Positions 5,656 to 27,036 are shown, numbered from the stretch's first letter. The stretch: 32,000 bases of DNA from Candidatus Helarchaeota ASGARD archaeon Hel_GB_B (GCA_005191425.1 SUPR01000014.1:1-32000), one strand, 5' to 3'. Notes: generated by a model not told the origin, from the letters alone. Program-made: numbers and translations.

Positions 5656-5829
5656 AATTATAGTCCTTATTGTTCTATTTTTCATGGTACTATTAATAAT
5701 TTTTATGTTTCTTTTTTATTAAAGACAATGAATCTTTAATTTAAGATTAATATTTTCTTGATTTTTTTTGAGTATAATTAAAAAAATAAAAAGAAAAATA
5801 CTAAAAGATTTTAAATAAAAATTTTCAAA

Positions 5830-6306
5830 TTATTTATAATGTTCTTTTATATATTTTTGGATAAATTCTTCTGATTTTTCTATTAATTTTAAGACATCAG
5901 CTGTTTCCTTTTTAATCAAATCATTAATACTTTCTTTTACTTTATGTTTTTTACTTTCTTTCCATGCCCGCTTATAAAATTCGAGTGCTTCATCTCTGCC
6001 ATTTTTGTATTCTGCAAACATTCGTGCCATTTCTATATCTGCCATTACAACTCCTTCAAAATCCTTATTTTTATTTTTTAAATCGTGTTTTCGTTCAATA
6101 TAAATTAGAGCTTGACGAGGCTTTTTTAATATCTTATGATAACATTCAGCAATTTTATCAAGAGTTTTATAGGCATCGTCCCATGCAGTCAACGACTCAA
6201 AACGTTTCCATGCCTTTATAAAGAAATTAACTGCTTTTTTAGGATTTGGTTTATCTGCTTCTAAAAATGATAGCCCTTTCTCATAAAATGATTTTGCTTT
6301 TTCCAA
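5830..6306 (-). CDS. Small TPR/SNAP-like helical-repeat protein
   Basis: TTG start after GGTGA; repeated helical pairs AKSFYEKG, AVNFFIKAWKRFE, AYKTLDKIAECYHK, ALEFYKRAWK. Confidence 0.75.
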   Translation of the reverse strand: MEKAKSFYEKGLSFLEADKPNPKKAVNFFIKAWKRFESLTAWDDAYKTLDKIAECYHKILKKPRQALIYIERKHDLKNKNKDFEGVVMADIEMARMFAEYKNGRDEALEFYKRAWKESKKHKVKESINDLIKKETADVLKLIEKSEEFIQKYIKEHYK

Positions 6307-6722
6307 ATAATTTCACCTTTTAATACAAATTTTGTTTTTTAATGATAAATTCTTTAAAATAATATAAATTTATAAAGTATTATAATGATCTTGCTAATTT
6401 TTTTTATATTCTTTTATAAATTATAATCTAAATAAATACTTTTCAATAATATTCAGAGGAGCTTAAACGAAAATAAAGTATTAATTTATTAATAATTGTT
6501 CATCTACTTTAGAATTTTAAAGTATTAATACTCTTAATAAAATAATTGAATGATTTTATAAAAATGTAAGTAAAAAATTCAAATTTATCCTTATTTTATT
6601 AACACGAAAAACCTAAAATAACTGCAGGCCGTCAATCTTCGATAAAAAAGAATTTATAAAATTAAAATCGGTAAGAATATCAATTAAATTACTTATTATT
6701 AATTAATTATGTTGGTGATAAA

Positions 6723-7847: not shown

Positions 7848-8290
7848 ATCAAATTCTACTTTTATTTTTTCTTTATTTATGTGAAATGGACAAAATTTAT
7901 AATTAATATATCTGTATATTTACTTACGGAGATTCGGAATAATCCTTGATCAATATTCTATCATATTTATATATTATAATCATGGAATTGGCTAGAAATT
8001 TAATATATTAACGGAATTTAACTATAAACAATTTAAACACTTGAAGCTTAAAATATTATAGTTAAAAATTATTCTAAAACATTGTTTAATGAAGTCAATC
8101 ATTTTAATAAAAGAAATTTTTAACAATAATTAATATATTAATTTACCAAATCCTAACTTATTTATTATCATAAATTAAAGAATAACCCAAATAATCTTTT
8201 TTAAATAAAATTTTTATAAAAATCTTAAATCGTAAATATAAAGATTTTTTGAAAAAAAGTGATTATTGTTTAAAATAGAGGTATTTGTAA

Positions 8291-21617: not shown

Positions 21618-23369
21618 TTAGCTGGATTTTTTTTGTTTTTTTAATTCTTTTTGTAATAAAGCTCTCCTCATGACTTTTCCAACTGGTGTTTTTGGTATCA
21701 TTCCTACAAATTCTACAATTCTTGGCCATTTATAACCAGCCATTTTTTCTTTAGCCCAATCGATGATTTCTTGTTCAGTAATTTTACCTTGATATTCAGG
21801 TTTCAATTTAATAAAGGCTTTAATTTTTTCTCCGACAATTTCATCTGGGTCTGGGACGCCAATAACTGCACATTCAAGAACTGCTGGATGCTCATAAAGT
21901 GATTCTTCAACTTCCGCCGGTAATATTCGGTATCCTTTATATTTTATTTGTTCTTTTGTCCTGCCTACTATATAAAAAAAGCCTTTTTCGTCCATATAAG
22001 CTATATCTCCAGTTCTTAGCCAGATATTTCCGTTCTCGTCTTCAACAAGTGTATCTTTTGTAGCTTCAGGATTTTTCCAATAACCTTTCATAACTTGAGG
22101 GCCTCTTATTAATAATTCACCGCGTTCTCCGACTTTCAATTCAGTAATATAATCTGGGGGTTGGACTATTTTTGCGTCAGTGTCAATTATTGGAAAACTA
22201 ATACTCTCTGGATTAATATCTTCCCAGCAGGCAGCTACTGTGCACATGCAAGTGACTTCTGTGAGGCCATATGCATTTACTACTTTTAATCCTGTTTTGT
22301 CATGCCAAATTTTTGCTACTTTTGGCGGGAGGGCAGCAGCTCCGGATGCGCTAAATTCCAAGGACGAAAGGTCGCTTTTTTTAAAGTTTGGATGGTTAAT
22401 TAAAAAATTGTACATTGTGGGAATACCCGAAAATGTCGCAAGTTTATATCTATCTATCATTTTAAGGACTTCCCCAGCATCAAAACTAGAATAAATTATC
22501 AAGCTAATCACTCCTAACACGCATGAATTAAGGACAAAAAAACCCATTCCATGACATAGTGGATTACAAGTTAATGACCTCACTTTTCCCAATTCTGCGA
22601 GAGTCTCTTCAACTGAGCCTCTCCATGAACCAGCAACACCTGTATATAAAAATTGAAACGAATTTGATAGAATATTTGAGTGCGTTAACATAACGCCTTT
22701 TGGGAGACCTGTCGTCCCACCTGTAAATAATAGTGCACCCAAATCCTCCTTAATATTAATATTGACCTTTGGAAATAATGGGCGATACTTTTCAAGCAGT
22801 TTTTTAATAGTTATTTCATCAGGTTTGTCTGATGATATTTTAATTATATTTTCAACATTTGCTTCTTTACATGCGCGTTTTACTGTTCCAAATAATCTCT
22901 CATCCGTAATGAAAACTTTTATTATTCCCGATGAATTAACAATATGAGCAACTTCCTTTTTTTTCAATAACGGATTTACAGGAATTAGGATACCCCCTGA
23001 TTGACTTGAGGCATAAACTGCAAAAATATATTCTGGACAATTTGGAGTCATAATTGCTATTCCATCGCCTTTTTTAATTCCAAATTCGTTCATAAATACA
23101 TTTGTTAATACATCTACATAATAGGAAGTTTCATAAAATGTATATTTATCATTAGTCTGGGGAAAATGCATCATTATGTTATTGGGGAAATCTAACGCGG
23201 ATTTTTTTAATAAACAATGAAAACCTTCAAGTTCTGGATATTTTAAAGTTTTTGGGATATAATCTGGTCTATTTTTAAGCCAAGGTCTACCCGGTCTGAC
23301 CCATGGACTTTCATGGTCAAAATCTGCTACTTCCAGGCGATCATAATCACATCTTTCTTCATTAGACAA
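21618..23369 (-). CDS. Long-chain acyl-CoA synthetase (AMP-forming, FadD-like)
   Basis: FTGGTTGLPKG, AYGLTE, GELLIRGPQVMKGYW, LRTGD, GRTKEQIKYKG, KTPVGKV; TTG start after GGGTGA. Confidence 0.95.
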   Translation of the reverse strand: MSNEERCDYDRLEVADFDHESPWVRPGRPWLKNRPDYIPKTLKYPELEGFHCLLKKSALDFPNNIMMHFPQTNDKYTFYETSYYVDVLTNVFMNEFGIKKGDGIAIMTPNCPEYIFAVYASSQSGGILIPVNPLLKKKEVAHIVNSSGIIKVFITDERLFGTVKRACKEANVENIIKISSDKPDEITIKKLLEKYRPLFPKVNINIKEDLGALLFTGGTTGLPKGVMLTHSNILSNSFQFLYTGVAGSWRGSVEETLAELGKVRSLTCNPLCHGMGFFVLNSCVLGVISLIIYSSFDAGEVLKMIDRYKLATFSGIPTMYNFLINHPNFKKSDLSSLEFSASGAAALPPKVAKIWHDKTGLKVVNAYGLTEVTCMCTVAACWEDINPESISFPIIDTDAKIVQPPDYITELKVGERGELLIRGPQVMKGYWKNPEATKDTLVEDENGNIWLRTGDIAYMDEKGFFYIVGRTKEQIKYKGYRILPAEVEESLYEHPAVLECAVIGVPDPDEIVGEKIKAFIKLKPEYQGKITEQEIIDWAKEKMAGYKWPRIVEFVGMIPKTPVGKVMRRALLQKELKKQKKSS

Positions 23370-23555: not shown

Positions 23556-24575
23556 ATGAATCAAGAAATTGACCATAATTCTGAATCAATAAAGTCTATA
23601 TACCACCAAATACAGGGATTTTTTAAGAATCCATTTGATTATAAATTAAGCCTTAAATCATTATCCTGGTATTTAATAGCTTTAGTAAGTTGTTATTTAA
23701 TTTCAAGTTTATTTCATGGTAGTATAAATATTCCAGTTAATATAAGTGAACTACCAAATGGTGCTGGACAATTTTTTCCGTTTCCCTTACCTGATATAAT
23801 CGAACTTATTTTTATGGGTCCAATATTCACTCTAATCTATTTTATTATAATGAAAATAATGATAAAAAAAATTAAGATTGAAAAAAAGCGAGATTCTTAT
23901 ATTTCAGAATTTTTGGAGCTTATAAGTATTTTATTAGTGGGAATATTGGTAGCTGGACATTTTATCCATGTAACTTATAACTATGCAAGTCATCTTTATG
24001 ATTTACAATTTGGTGGATATGATACTTCTAATTTATTTTTATTTTTATATTGGTCTGACGAATGGTTAGGACATCATCTTATTCATTTTGCATTTTTTTT
24101 CCAGATAATTTTATTTTTAATAGTTGAATATAAGCTTAACGATCATAAAATTATGAGTTGGGACGAAATCGCTCTTTCTGTTTCATTAGGGATTGGTCTA
24201 TTTATTTTATTGGGATGGGCTACTTATGAAGGGCAATGTACTTTTCCATTAATGCTACTTTGCTTCATTTTATTAATTGTAGAAATAATTATTATTTTAA
24301 TAAAAAGGTTAAACCCACTAAGATTTCCTCTTATTTTCATTACAATGATCTCAAATATAATTGTAGTCGGATTCTATTTTTTCTGGATATTTAGTTATGG
24401 AATTAAACCATATTATCCTTTTATATATCAGCCGTCCGAGTTGAGCAATTACTTTGACCCGGTAAATCATTTATTAGAAATTTTTATTATAATTGCAATA
24501 ATTTATTTATCTCTTTTTACAATAAAATTTATCAAAAATTATAAAAAGAAGGACTTAAAAAATGAACCCAAATGA
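23556..24575 (+). CDS. Polytopic membrane protein, CLN6-like
   Basis: About seven to eight hydrophobic segments; motifs AGHFIHVTYN, LYWSDEWLGHHL, ATYEGQ and KPYYPFIYQPSE in the same order as the motifs I recall from human CLN6. Confidence 0.72.
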   Translation: MNQEIDHNSESIKSIYHQIQGFFKNPFDYKLSLKSLSWYLIALVSCYLISSLFHGSINIPVNISELPNGAGQFFPFPLPDIIELIFMGPIFTLIYFIIMKIMIKKIKIEKKRDSYISEFLELISILLVGILVAGHFIHVTYNYASHLYDLQFGGYDTSNLFLFLYWSDEWLGHHLIHFAFFFQIILFLIVEYKLNDHKIMSWDEIALSVSLGIGLFILLGWATYEGQCTFPLMLLCFILLIVEIIIILIKRLNPLRFPLIFITMISNIIVVGFYFFWIFSYGIKPYYPFIYQPSELSNYFDPVNHLLEIFIIIAIIYLSLFTIKFIKNYKKKDLKNEPK

Positions 24576-25062
24576 AATTTTAGAATTAATGAAAAATAGG
24601 CGGTCAATTAGAGAATATACGGATACACCGATATCTAATGAAGATATTAATATGATATTAGAAGCAGCTCGATGGTGTCAAAGTGGGAGTAATAAGCAGC
24701 CATGGCGATTTATTGTGATTAAAAATAAAAATATAATAGAAAAACTTGCAAAATTAGCTAAATATGGCCACTTTGTTAAACGAGCTCCTGTTGTAATTGC
24801 CGTTGTATCTAATAAAAAAGTATCACCAAAATGGTATATTCATGACTCTTCAATGGCAGCTCATCAAATTTGTCTAATGGTATCTGCTCTGGGATTGGGC
24901 ACTTGTTGGATAGGGAGTTTAGACCGTGATAAAGGTGCAGAATTATTAGGTCTCTCAAAAGATGAATTTCTCACAACAATTCTACCTATTGGACACCCCC
25001 AGAAAATTCCTAAACCAACACCTCGAAAACCATTAGAAAAAATCGTTTCTTATTTAGATTAG
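24562..25062 (+). CDS. Nitroreductase-family flavoprotein
   Basis: RRSIREY, ILEAARWCQSGSNKQPWRFIVI, GLGTCWI, PRKPLE; overlaps the preceding gene by 14 bp (operon). Confidence 0.93.
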   Translation: MNPNEILELMKNRRSIREYTDTPISNEDINMILEAARWCQSGSNKQPWRFIVIKNKNIIEKLAKLAKYGHFVKRAPVVIAVVSNKKVSPKWYIHDSSMAAHQICLMVSALGLGTCWIGSLDRDKGAELLGLSKDEFLTTILPIGHPQKIPKPTPRKPLEKIVSYLD

Positions 25063-25238: not shown

Positions 25239-27036
25239 ATGGAAAACGAAAATCTGAATAAAGACCAAAAGGTCAAACAAAAATCAAAAAGGACTGATGT
25301 TTTTAAAAAATCTGGCAGTTCAAGAGTAATCGCTTCTGCAAGTTGGACTATATTAATAGCTGTTATCGGTGCAATCATGTTATTTATTTATCAAGTAATT
25401 GCCGGAAATTATTATGGAGAAAGTGGTGGGCTTTCATATTTTAGTGTGACAGCTGCGATCCTTGCCATTTCAACTGCTATAAGTGTTGGGACTGGACAAG
25501 CTTTTATTAAAATTGGAAAAGAGCGATACACAATTGATGGAATAGAAAAAGGTAATATTAAAATAATTCAAATGTCTAAAATCAATATGTTATTTGGGTT
25601 GATTATTACTGGAGTCGTCCTAATAATTTCGGTATTTAATTTTACTGATCCAGTATTTTTCATAATATTAATTGGAGCTTCAAGTGGCATCTTAATCACT
25701 TATATTAAAGATATTTTAGGAAATATGCTGGGAACTCTTAATCGGTTTGATATGTTAGCCATAGTTGGAGGTATTTATGGAGTTATTGTCTGTATTTTTG
25801 GTTTCTTGATTATTTCTTTGAATTTACCGCCTCAATTTCTAGCTTTTATTCCTACTATTATGATAATTATAATGTTAGCCCTGTCAATTTTTTTCTACAA
25901 TAAAATTAAGACTGTTAGTTTTAAGGATTTATTTTTTAGCTTGAAAAAATTTCCGATTGAAAAACGGTTTGCAAAACATTATATTATTTATGGAATTGAA
26001 TGCACAATCAGTAATTTGGTAGTATTTGGTATTTTTTCTCATATTGTGTTAATAATGACTTTTATATGCTATAATTATTGGGGTACTTTTTTAGGGATCA
26101 CAACTAGTGTCCTAAATATGACTCAAATTCTTACATTAATTGATTCTTTTGTTTTTATCGAAGTTGCTTTGATTTTTTTTTTCAGGTCCATTAAATGTTG
26201 AAGTCAGTGAAGCTTACGCAAAAAAAGATTATATAACAATGGAAAAATCAATAAATGCAGTTGGAAGGATTGGTATAATTATTGCACTTCCTATATCTTT
26301 AGCCATGACTTTTATGGCACCTCAATTAATCAAAATGTTTGCTTTAGGGTCGGTATCAAAAGGTTCTCCTCCAATATTAGACCCTTCCTTATTCTTTCAA
26401 GCATGGCTTACACTCTCTATAACTTCATTTGGTCAAGCTTTCTATGGATTAGCATGTATATTTGGAGCTGCTCTAATTGGGGCAGGAAAAGCTAAAAAGG
26501 CAGCAATGGGCTTCGGTATATCCGCAGTCCTTCTTTTTTTAAGTACTCCTGCATTAATTTTTCTGGTCGGTATTATTGATGATTATTTCCCTATTTTTGG
26601 CGTTTCTACATATTCATTAATTGGAACTGGATTTGCATTTTTATTAAGTGGAATATTTGTATTACCTTATTTAGCTCGGGCTACGAAAACTGTTCTTAAA
26701 ATTAAATATGATCTACGAGTTAAAAGATTAATCCCATGTTTAATTATCCTTGCAATATATCTTATTTTAATACCAATTGATTCTGGAGCTTCATTTTTAC
26801 TAAATTATTTTCCCACTCTTGGATTTGATCTTTTAAAGTTAATTCTCTTAACAATATTTCTTCTTATAGGGACTCTTATTAGTGGCGTTTCACTATGCTT
26901 TTTTGGAGTGATCGGAAAAGGTGATGGTAATATTTTAAGAGATACATTTGCTTCATTTAAAATGGGGATATTAGCTAAAATCATAATTAAAATCGGAAAA
27001 TTTATCTACTACTTAAATCCAATGAACCCTAAATGA
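25239..27036 (+). pseudogene. MOP-superfamily flippase (oligo/polysaccharide or MATE-like) split by a frameshift in a T10 run; may be an intact gene with a sequencing error
   Basis: ORFs 25239-26201 and 26239-27036 join into about 598 aa if one T is removed from T10 at 26173-26182. The junction then reads IFFSGPLNVEVSEAYAKKDYITMEKSINAVGRIGIIIALP, a typical flippase cytoplasmic-loop pattern. Confidence 0.75.

What the first reader, a model, noticed from the sequence alone, without database searches (positions are those of the whole stretch)
23556..24575. Candidate archaeal homolog of CLN6, the ER membrane protein mutated in a form of Batten disease
Seen: a polytopic protein with four ordered motifs: AGHFIHVTYNYASH, FLYWSDEWLGHHLIHFAFF, WATYEGQ and KPYYPFIYQPSE. 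Established, recalled from memory and to be verified: human CLN6 has MGASIHLVGDSVNH, LLYYYDEYLGHCMWYIPFF, YLVTEGQ and KKYPGVIYVPEP in the same order, at similar spacing and in a protein of similar size. CLN6 is an ER protein linked to lysosomal enzyme export whose biochemical activity is poorly defined. Inference: the conserved intramembrane H, DE..GH and EGQ residues look like a metal or catalytic site. The prokaryotic context (acyl-CoA ligase, amidohydrolase, flavoprotein) suggests a lipid-modifying enzyme, which would bear on CLN6 function and origin. Bacterial homologs may exist, which would weaken its status as a eukaryotic signature.
Basis: partly seen in the sequence, partly recalled or inferred. 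Interest (0 to 1): 0.85.

Follow-up and report, generated by a model that had tools for sequence, protein, structure and literature searches.

The report
Asgard homolog of the CLN6 epimerase
This archaeal membrane protein is a genuine distant relative of human CLN6, the Batten-disease enzyme just shown to flip the handedness of a glycerol-phosphate lipid precursor; it keeps the mapped catalytic residues, but the family is also common in bacteria, so it is not an Asgard-to-eukaryote signature.

Summary
The ORF (23556-24575, +, 339 aa) and its four motifs are real. Homology to CLN6 is confirmed four ways. An Asgard-only HMM recovers Pfam-CLN6 proteins from 1.84 billion sequences. Profile-profile comparison with metazoan CLN6 gives 95.7% probability (E 9e-9). 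The only significant Swiss-Prot fold matches are dog and human CLN6. A metazoan-only HMM scores the protein at E 8e-7. Two October 2026 preprints show human CLN6 is a Ca2+-dependent glycerophosphoglycerol epimerase with a phospho-histidine nucleophile. The window protein keeps that His (H173), the Ca2+ ligands D168/E169, plus E225 and H138. It has N142 where human has D131. Human D59/R62 could not be aligned. All motifs face outward, as the human site faces the ER lumen, and a homodimer is predicted. The protein is below the Pfam threshold, has an extra eighth helix, and lies in a "long-form" Asgard clade separate from the half of the tree holding animal CLN6. The superfamily is patchy in Asgard (43 of 301 genomes) and abundant in bacteria (Chloroflexota, Actinomycetota). 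Eukaryotic ancestry is unresolved. Gene context is not conserved, and no CLN8 or CLN5 partner was found. The scan noted the same idea on another genome (e1-5425166).

The parts
23556..24575 (+). CLN6-superfamily gene (339 aa): predicted 8-TM, N-terminus in the cytoplasm, homodimeric membrane enzyme
   Evidence: ORF. AF2 model pLDDT 86, pTM 0.81. CLN6 homology. Topology. Homodimer model.
23952..23993 (+). Motif 1, aa 133-146 at the outer end of TM3. H138 = human H127 (patient variant H127Y is inactive). N142 = human D131.
   Evidence: hhalign. In the 152-sequence alignment the column is H in 143 of 152, and D or N at the D131 column. Human data.
24042..24098 (+). Motif 2, aa 163-181 at the outer start of TM4. 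D168/E169 = human Ca2+ ligands D173/E174. H173 = human H178, the proposed phospho-histidine nucleophile. H177 = human Y182.
   Evidence: D in 150/152, E in 152/152, H in 152/152. Human mutagenesis.
24216..24236 (+). Motif 3, aa 221-227, external loop between TM5 and TM6. E225 = human E227 (essential). W221 = human Y223.
   Evidence: E in 133/152. Invariant in the 23-member window clade. Human data.
24405..24440 (+). Motif 4, aa 284-295, external segment after TM7. It corresponds to the metazoan KYPGxIYVPEPW tail and forms part of the predicted dimer interface.
   Evidence: Y287, P288 and Q292 invariant in A1. Y and P shared with metazoa. Interface residues 284-295.
24459..24560 (+). Extra C-terminal transmembrane helix (aa 302-335) and Lys-rich tail. 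Found only in the window's five-member subclade. It returns the C-terminus to the cytoplasm, unlike CLN6.
   Evidence: Alignment (only P0001 and P0003-P0006 extend past QPSEL). DSSP. Positive-inside count.
24562..25062 (+). Nitroreductase-family gene whose start overlaps the CLN6-like stop by 14 nt. Probably co-transcribed, but the link is not conserved.
   Evidence: Pfam PF00881 E 1e-32. The same downstream neighbour occurs only in L030 among 26 loci.
21618..23369 (-). Divergently transcribed AMP-binding (acyl-CoA ligase type) gene. Adjacent but not a conserved partner.
   Evidence: Pfam PF00501 E 1e-72. Absent beside homologs elsewhere.

Best explanation
The gene encodes a divergent prokaryotic member of the CLN6 superfamily. 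It is a homodimeric polytopic membrane enzyme whose active site opens to the outside of the cell, the topological equivalent of the ER lumen. By analogy with human CLN6, it most likely binds a glycerophosphodiester through Ca2+ ions held by D168/E169 (with E225 and N142). It would then use H173 as a nucleophile to form a phospho-histidine intermediate, and return the phosphate to the other primary hydroxyl of the same glycerol. This 1,3-phosphoryl migration inverts that glycerol from the sn-3 (R) to the sn-1 (S) configuration or back. Shown here: homology, fold likeness, conservation of five of the six mapped essential residues (a D-to-N change at the sixth), outward topology, and a predicted dimer. 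Inferred: the chemistry and the Ca2+ dependence. Unknown: the physiological substrate (free glycerophosphoglycerol, the glycerol head group of archaetidylglycerol or phosphatidylglycerol, or another glycerophosphodiester). My confidence in homology alone is about 0.95. The figure given below is for the epimerase mechanism.
For: Homology: the Asgard-only HMM finds 129 representatives, and 20 of 128 scanned match Pfam CLN6 at E<0.01. P0127 scores Pfam CLN6 E 2e-44 and P0062 scores 30.2 bits against a cut-off of 27. hhalign against 20 metazoan CLN6 gives probability 95.7, E 9e-9. In Foldseek against Swiss-Prot models only dog and human CLN6 are significant (E 5e-4 and 7e-4, TM about 0.5; next hit E 0.05). 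A metazoan-only HMM scores the window protein 14.2 bits, E 8e-7 for one comparison. The Pfam CLN6 model itself hits Asgard ORFs, one over its cut-off, and 0 of 14 control genomes. Catalytic site: human D173, E174, H178, E227 and H127 map to D168, E169, H173, E225 and H138, which are invariant or nearly so over 152 sequences. 103 of 133 non-metazoan members keep the whole set. The human function, Ca2+ dependence, essential residues and lumen-facing cavity come from two independent preprints. Topology: cytoplasmic loops carry 20 K+R and external loops 1, and all motifs are external. Millimolar Ca2+ is available outside a marine-sediment or vent organism (habitat; seawater Ca2+ from general knowledge). 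Dimer: complex prediction score 0.83 against a best control of 0.00. In calibration that mark was reached by 20 of 30 proteins solved as pairs of one chain and 1 of 23 solved as single chains. The runs agree in at least 95% of contacts, and partner pLDDT is 89. No CLN6-like structure is in the PDB, so the pass is not from memory. The preprint models human CLN6 as a homodimer.
Against: The window protein has N142 where human D131 is essential (D131A is inactive), although N is the commonest residue there in the prokaryotic members. Human D59 and R62, also essential, could not be aligned to any archaeal residue. The downstream enzymes of the human pathway, CLN8 (TLC domain) and CLN5, were not found in this 93.7%-complete genome, so the product's fate is unknown. 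Archaeal ether lipids cannot be deacylated to free glycerophosphoglycerol (general knowledge). The family is patchy in Asgard (43 of 301 genomes), so it is not a core lipid function. There is no conserved operon to suggest a substrate. No biochemical evidence exists for any prokaryotic member.
Confidence: 0.55

Rival explanations
1. Same fold and same phospho-histidine/Ca2+ chemistry, but a different net reaction. The phospho-enzyme intermediate is resolved by water or by another alcohol, making the protein an outward-facing phosphodiesterase or head-group transferase acting on membrane lipids or on scavenged glycerophosphodiesters, not an epimerase.
For: The nucleophile and metal ligands are conserved, but substrate-contacting residues differ: human Y182 is H177, Y223 is W221, D131 is N142, and D59/R62 have no counterpart. 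The window clade has two extra invariant histidines, H174 and H177. There are no CLN8 or CLN5 partners. The window clade is the part of the tree furthest from animal CLN6.
Against: The residues essential for the human reaction are exactly those most conserved across the superfamily. Nothing in the sequence points to a second acceptor site. No hydrolytic relative of this fold is known.
Confidence: 0.25
2. One reading: a metal-dependent lipid-modifying enzyme that works with the neighbouring acyl-CoA ligase, amidohydrolase and flavoprotein.
For: The nitroreductase gene overlaps the stop codon by 14 nt. Two AMP-binding ligases and an amidohydrolase lie within 6 kb. One other genome (L030) also has a nitroreductase just downstream.
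Against: Across 26 loci with family members, no flanking ORF cluster recurs beyond four near-identical syntenic loci, whose neighbours are a proteasome subunit, a radical SAM protein and an FKBP. The ligase and amidohydrolase are never adjacent elsewhere. Those enzymes are cytoplasmic, whereas the conserved site faces outward.
Confidence: 0.08
3. A non-catalytic membrane scaffold or cargo receptor, as in the older model of CLN6 as part of the CLN6-CLN8 ER export complex.
For: This was the prevailing view of CLN6 before October 2026; the search lists reviews that still describe this role.
Against: Polar residues at a membrane face are near-invariant across Asgard, bacteria and animals. Purified human CLN6 has direct enzymatic activity. 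There is no CLN8 partner here.
Confidence: 0.04
4. The resemblance is convergent or chance, and the protein is unrelated to CLN6.
For: The single-sequence Pfam scan finds no CLN6 hit. Pairwise BLASTP against frog CLN6 gives only E 0.001 with the first motif out of register. TM-scores to CLN6 models are only about 0.5.
Against: Four independent profile or structure tests agree, and a continuum of intermediate sequences links the groups.
Confidence: 0.02

Closest known systems
Human/metazoan CLN6 (Pfam PF15156), the ER glycerophosphoglycerol epimerase of BMP biosynthesis
   Same: Homologous by profile and fold. Similar size. N-terminus cytoplasmic, seven core TM helices, active-site motifs on the luminal/external face. 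His nucleophile, Asp-Glu Ca2+ pair, EGQ glutamate and first-motif His conserved. Predicted homodimer.
   Different: About 13-14% identity and below the Pfam cut-off. N instead of D131. No alignable D59/R62. H177 for Y182. An extra eighth TM helix puts the C-terminus inside. No CLN8 or CLN5 partners found in the genome. Plasma-membrane rather than ER setting. Substrate unknown.
Short-form (about 240 aa) prokaryotic CLN6-like proteins of Asgard (Hermod-, Baldr-, Jord-, Promethearchaeota) and bacteria (Chloroflexota, Actinomycetota, Obscuribacterales)
   Same: Same superfamily and catalytic set. Atlas structural matches have TM by row 0.75-0.86.
   Different: These end at the QPSE motif, lack the N-terminal extension and TM8, and sit in the half of the tree that also holds animal CLN6 (97/97 support). 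Some already reach the Pfam CLN6 cut-off, whereas the window protein does not.
Other histidine-nucleophile phosphoryl-transfer enzymes (for example HKD/phospholipase D family and cofactor-dependent phosphoglycerate mutase; comparison from general knowledge)
   Same: The proposed covalent phospho-histidine intermediate and phosphoryl migration between hydroxyls.
   Different: No sequence or fold relation was detected. CLN6-type enzymes are integral-membrane and Ca2+-dependent.

Membership tests
Pfam CLN6 (PF15156) | Scores over the curated gathering cut-off (27 bits) of the Pfam model | tested here: not met
   No CLN6 hit for the window protein even at E<=10, nor for any of its 22 closest relatives. 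Relatives P0062 (30.2 bits) and an Asgard ORF in G044 (27.4 bits) do pass.
CLN6 superfamily (homology) | Significant profile-level similarity to bona fide CLN6 | tested here: met
   The A1 HMM reaches Pfam-CLN6 proteins. hhalign probability 95.7, E 9e-9. Metazoan-only HMM 14.2 bits, E 8e-7.
CLN6 superfamily (homology) | Same predicted fold as CLN6 | tested here: met
   Foldseek against Swiss-Prot models: dog and human CLN6 are ranks 1-2 (E 5e-4 and 7e-4, probability 1.00, TM 0.47-0.51); all other hits have E>=0.05. CLN6 entries also appear in the cluster library. Both sides are predicted models.
CLN6 superfamily (enzyme) | Catalytic histidine (human H178) and Ca2+ ligands D173/E174 | tested here: met
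   H173, D168 and E169 in the window protein; these columns are 152/152, 150/152 and 152/152 conserved.
CLN6 superfamily (enzyme) | Other essential pocket residues: H127, D131, E227, D59, R62 | tested here: inconclusive
   H127 maps to H138 and E227 to E225, both conserved. D131 maps to N142 (D or N across the family). D59 and R62 fall in an N-terminal region that does not align.
CLN6 superfamily (enzyme) | N-terminus cytosolic, active site facing the lumen/exterior | tested here: met
   Positive-inside count is 20 against 1, and all motifs lie in external loops or outer helix ends. The extra TM8 makes the C-terminus cytoplasmic, unlike CLN6.
CLN6 superfamily (enzyme) | Homodimer | tested here: met
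   In silico only: score 0.83 against best control 0.00. Calibration: 20 of 30 proteins solved as pairs of one chain and 1 of 23 solved as single chains reached the mark. Contacts agree at least 95% between runs, pLDDT 89.
CLN6 superfamily (enzyme) | Ca2+-dependent R,S- to S,S-glycerophosphoglycerol epimerase activity | not testable with these tools
   Needs purified protein and chiral LC-MS or the coupled CLN8 assay described.
Eukaryote-type BMP pathway (CLN6-CLN8-CLN5) | Presence of the CLN8 (TLC, PF03798) and CLN5 (PF15014) partners | tested here: not met
   Neither was found in the 93.7%-complete genome. The CLN5 model rang in no control genome either, so that search is weak.
Asgard-derived eukaryotic signature protein | Distribution restricted to Asgard archaea and eukaryotes | tested here: not met
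   Bacterial members: an Obscuribacterales MAG; groups next to PadR/zf-CGNR, RecR and YdjM; Atlas clusters of 362, 106, 88, 78 and 53 members, mostly Chloroflexota and Actinomycetota.
Asgard-derived eukaryotic signature protein | Eukaryotic sequences branch within Asgard sequences | tested here: inconclusive
   Metazoa pair with different bacterial groups in the two trees (SH-aLRT 93; 88/44), inside a polytomy that also holds Asgard groups. The AU test does not reject metazoa with the window's half (p 0.21) or eukaryote monophyly (p 0.43).
DUF63 (PF01889) | Match to the family, or shared motifs | tested here: not met
   Four Asgard DUF63 proteins give negative bit scores against the A1, A2 and A3 HMMs and lack the DE..GH and EGQ motifs. 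No family member hit PF01889.

The most novel reading that the evidence does not exclude
Prokaryotic CLN6-like proteins are surface-facing enzymes that interconvert sn-3 (bacterial/eukaryotic, R) and sn-1 (archaeal, S) glycerophosphate linkages. In Asgard archaea living next to bacteria, they would set or re-set the handedness of glycerophosphoglycerol-type head groups, or of scavenged bacterial lipid fragments. Eukaryotes later used the same activity to make S,S-BMP. That would be the first enzymatic bridge across the archaeal/bacterial lipid-stereochemistry divide found in the lineage related to the eukaryotic host.
Probability: 0.12. Interest if true: 0.9.

Novelty: new variant of a known kind. 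Interest (0 to 1): 0.62.

Why it matters
CLN6 was assigned an enzymatic function only in October 2026, and neither preprint mentions prokaryotic relatives. A 2008 survey dated CLN6 to vertebrates, with no homology to anything else. Full-text searches found nothing that links CLN6 to Asgard or other archaea. Showing that the catalytic core is near-invariant from bacteria and Asgard archaea to humans does three things. First, it independently supports the proposed active site: evolution conserves the same residues that mutagenesis found essential. Second, it offers small and possibly robust homologs from vent and sediment organisms for structural and mechanistic work on a Batten-disease enzyme that has no solved structure. 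Third, it raises a testable question of what a glycerol-phosphate stereo-inverting enzyme does in organisms whose lipids differ from bacterial ones in that same stereocentre. It does not support an Asgard-specific origin of CLN6.

Tried and rejected
- Single-sequence Pfam and NCBIfam scans gave no meaningful hit.
- PDB sequence searches with the protein and with the profile gave nothing relevant.
- Foldseek against the PDB found no match at E<=0.001. The VIA-align wide search returned only generic helical bundles with Z<=9.2. The Atlas shape search with my own model gave TM<=0.34. So no solved fold relative was found, which does not prove the fold is new.
- The 'DUF63 family protein' label on an AFDB hit was tested and rejected. 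The 'Peptidase S54 rhomboid' label on the top AFDB hit is probably a mis-annotation; I did not test it.
- The search for related loci with the broad alignment failed for lack of a conserved stretch. With A1 it found only six close Asgard loci.
- The search for homologous proteins with the broad alignment was capped at 8000 candidates and added little beyond one named bacterial member.
- Neighbourhood conservation was negative.
- PF13685 as a probe for sn-glycerol-1-phosphate dehydrogenase in the genome was not diagnostic: four generic Fe-ADH hits, and it rings in most control genomes. Whether this genome makes G1P the canonical way is left open.
- CLN8 and CLN5 were not found.
- The AU topology tests were not decisive.
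- Expression: no RNA holder was listed for this DNA.
- I could not inspect model coordinates, so clustering of the conserved residues in one pocket is inferred from topology, from helix faces opposite the dimer interface and from the human model. It was not measured.

Full report
OBSERVATION. The window holds one ORF at exactly 23556..24575 on the + strand (ATG start, 339 aa). I fetched 20 named metazoan CLN6 proteins.

IS IT A CLN6 HOMOLOG? A direct Pfam or NCBIfam scan finds nothing, and the PDB holds no sequence relative. The 23 close homologs are all unannotated proteins of Asgard MAGs: Lokiarchaeota, Helarchaeota and Promethearchaeota. Their alignment A1 has H138, D168, E169, G172, H173, H174, H177, E225, G226, Q227, Y287, P288 and Q292 invariant. 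A profile of this Asgard-only alignment, run against 1.84 billion representatives, returned 129 proteins at E<=1e-3. Of 128 scanned, 20 match Pfam CLN6 (PF15156) at E<0.01. Among them, P0127 is a bona fide CLN6 (Pfam E 2e-44) reached at a library-wide E of 1.4e-5. P0062 passes the Pfam cut-off (30.2 against 27 bits) and was reached at 4.6e-22. Profile-profile comparison of A1 with the metazoan alignment A3 gives probability 95.7%, E 9.1e-9, over 183 columns with the H, DE..GH and EGQ motifs in register. A good AF2 model (pLDDT 86, pTM 0.81) has only two significant matches among 550,129 reviewed-protein models: dog and human CLN6 (E 5e-4 and 7e-4, TM about 0.5). The next hit is at E 0.05. A metazoan-only HMM scores the window protein at 14.2 bits (E 8e-7 for one comparison). 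The Pfam CLN6 model itself hits several Asgard ORFs, one above its cut-off, and none of 14 control genomes. Homology is therefore established, but the window protein is not a member of Pfam CLN6 by that family's own threshold.

WHAT CLN6 DOES. Two independent preprints of 9 October 2026 show that human CLN6 is a Ca2+-dependent epimerase. It converts R,S-glycerophosphoglycerol to S,S-glycerophosphoglycerol, upstream of CLN8 and CLN5 in the synthesis of bis(monoacylglycero)phosphate. The N-terminus is cytosolic, the C-terminus luminal, and the cavity opens to the Ca2+-rich ER lumen. The protein is modelled as a homodimer. D59, D131, D173, E174, H178 and E227 are essential. The patient variants R62H/C, H127Y and D59E are inactive. 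QM/MM supports a phospho-His178 intermediate with two Ca2+ ions and a 1,3-migration of the phosphate along the glycerol.

MAPPING ONTO THE WINDOW PROTEIN. I aligned 152 sequences: the window clade, other family representatives and metazoa. The column of human H178 is His in 152/152 (window H173), E174 is Glu in 152/152 (E169), D173 is Asp in 150/152 (D168), H127 is His in 143/152 (H138), and E227 is Glu in 133/152 (E225). D131 is D or N (window N142; N is the commonest state in prokaryotes). Y182 corresponds to H177 and Y223 to W221. D59 and R62 lie in an N-terminal region that does not align. An acidic residue at window E83 is conserved family-wide, including the metazoan Asp in GDYFH. 103 of 133 non-metazoan members keep the complete H-[D/N]-D-E-H-E set. 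So evolution has held constant the residues that mutagenesis found essential.

TOPOLOGY AND ASSEMBLY. The model has eight helices long and hydrophobic enough to span the membrane. Loops on the predicted cytoplasmic side carry 20 Lys+Arg and those on the outer side carry 1. Every conserved motif sits in an outer loop or an outer helix end. This is the CLN6 arrangement, because outside the cell is topologically equivalent to the ER lumen. The exception is the eighth helix (aa 302-335), present only in the five-member window subclade, which returns the Lys-rich C-terminus to the cytoplasm. A two-copy prediction of residues 25-300 scored 0.83 against a best control of 0.00. In the tool's calibration that mark was reached by 20 of 30 proteins solved as pairs of one chain and 1 of 23 solved as single chains. 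The three runs share at least 95% of contacts, and partner pLDDT is 89. The interface uses TM3, TM4, the beta-hairpin (59-76) and the C-terminal motif. The catalytic residues 138, 142, 168, 169 and 173 are not among the contact residues, whereas their helix neighbours are. That fits one pocket per protomer beside the interface (inference). No CLN6-like structure is in the PDB, so the pass is not template memory.

DISTRIBUTION AND ANCESTRY. The genome (3.54 Mb, 93.7% complete) has two further paralogs on contig C160. One is intact (266 aa). The other is split over two frames. Across 301 Asgard species genomes the family is patchy: 43 genomes and 24 of 70 genera. It is universal in some families (5/5, 6/6) and not found in others (0/76, 0/19). 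Named members come from Loki/Prometh-, Hel-, Sigyn-, Hermod-, Baldr-, Hod- and Jordarchaeia. One protein is labelled Reticulomyxa filosa, but it sits on a 1.8-kb contig, so its eukaryotic origin is unverified. Bacterial members are clear. One comes from an Obscuribacterales MAG. One group lies beside PadR and ABATE/zf-CGNR regulators. Another lies beside RecR and YdjM. The ESM Atlas holds clusters of 362, 106, 88, 78 and 53 members that are mostly Chloroflexota and Actinomycetota, with TM by row 0.75-0.86. 12% of the largest cluster already carries Pfam CLN6. In a careful IQ-TREE analysis, the long-form Asgard clade holding the window protein is separated (97/97) from a short-form half. That half holds metazoan CLN6, the Reticulomyxa group, short-form Asgard groups and three bacterial groups. 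Its backbone is a polytomy. Metazoa paired with one bacterial group in the quick tree (SH-aLRT 93) and with another in the careful tree (88/44). AU tests reject neither metazoa with the window's half (p 0.21) nor eukaryote monophyly (p 0.43). The donor of eukaryotic CLN6 is therefore unresolved, and the protein is not an Asgard/eukaryote signature.

CONTEXT. The neighbours are an AMP-binding ligase (divergent), an amidohydrolase, a nitroreductase whose start overlaps the stop codon by 14 nt, two membrane ORFs without a family, a ferredoxin-domain protein and a second ligase. None recurs beside family members in 26 loci, apart from a nitroreductase in one other genome. The only shared synteny, among four close relatives, involves housekeeping genes. 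No CLN8 (TLC) or CLN5 homolog was found in the genome. The DNA occurs in hydrothermal-vent and marine-sediment metagenomes.

INTERPRETATION. The best-supported reading is an outward-facing, Ca2+-dependent, histidine-nucleophile phosphoryl-migration enzyme that inverts a glycerol in a glycerophosphodiester, with unknown natural substrate (confidence 0.55; homology alone about 0.95). The main rival keeps the chemistry but resolves the phospho-enzyme by hydrolysis or transfer (0.25). The context-based lipid-enzyme idea (0.08), a non-catalytic role (0.04) and chance resemblance (0.02) are weak. From established stereochemistry, the R-glycerol phosphate of bacterial and eukaryotic lipids is sn-3 and the S form is sn-1, the archaeal configuration. 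So the reaction that CLN6 catalyses crosses the stereochemical difference that separates archaeal from bacterial membranes. Whether that matters in Asgard biology is speculation (novel case, probability 0.12).

NOVELTY. The searched literature holds no report of archaeal or bacterial CLN6 relatives, although Pfam already tags some bacterial proteins. An earlier first-stage note of this scan raised the same idea on another genome (e1-5425166). I class the finding as a new variant of a known kind. It is timely and testable, but the specific claim of Asgard ancestry is not supported.

Noticed in passing
G000 contig C160: L002 1480-2280 (-) and L003 1184-2034 (+): Two more CLN6-like paralogs in the same genome. 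L002 is an intact 266-aa protein with all catalytic motifs. L003 is split into overlapping 137-aa and 170-aa ORFs in different frames (frameshift, pseudogene or assembly error). Its first motif (LGIHYVGD) looks more like the metazoan ASIHLVGD than the window copy does.
   Followed up: partly
G291:C107:4868-5680 and 5696-6565 (locus L026): Tandem duplicate CLN6-like genes 16 nt apart in another Asgard genome, with a third copy on another contig. The family expands by local duplication.
   Followed up: no
family subclade P0025-P0042 and P0056 (sister to the window clade): About 15 representatives keep H, D, DE and the nucleophile His, but have lost the Glu of the EGQ motif (human E227, essential). 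They may be inactive or have a changed reaction.
   Followed up: no
window 25239-26201 (+) and 26239-27036 (+): Two ORFs (320 aa, strongly hydrophobic; 265 aa) just downstream of the nitroreductase have no Pfam match.
   Followed up: no
L021 8001-8729 (metagenomic archaeal contig): A short-form family member overlaps the stop of an archaeal Cbf5 pseudouridine-synthase gene, in a run with an adenylate-kinase-like gene and an EMC3/TMCO1-family insertase gene. The context is entirely different from the window's.
   Followed up: no
AFDB cluster hits A0A7V5VYF2 and A0A7J2L4V5: The best structural relatives in AFDB carry the automatic names 'Peptidase S54 rhomboid domain-containing protein' and 'DUF63 family protein'. 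DUF63 was shown to be unrelated by sequence, so these names are probably mis-annotations of CLN6-like proteins.
   Followed up: partly
P0102 (Reticulomyxa filosa ETO14140.1 / X6MM22): The only named non-metazoan eukaryotic member sits on a 1.8-kb contig, and its two relatives are short metagenomic contigs. It could be a contaminant, so the range of CLN6 in protists remains open.
   Followed up: partly
G213:C1:462739-463542, G038:C1:497304-498170: Closed single-contig Asgard genomes (4.36 Mb and 3.58 Mb) carry family members. If these are cultured strains, they would allow direct lipid and genetic tests.
   Followed up: no
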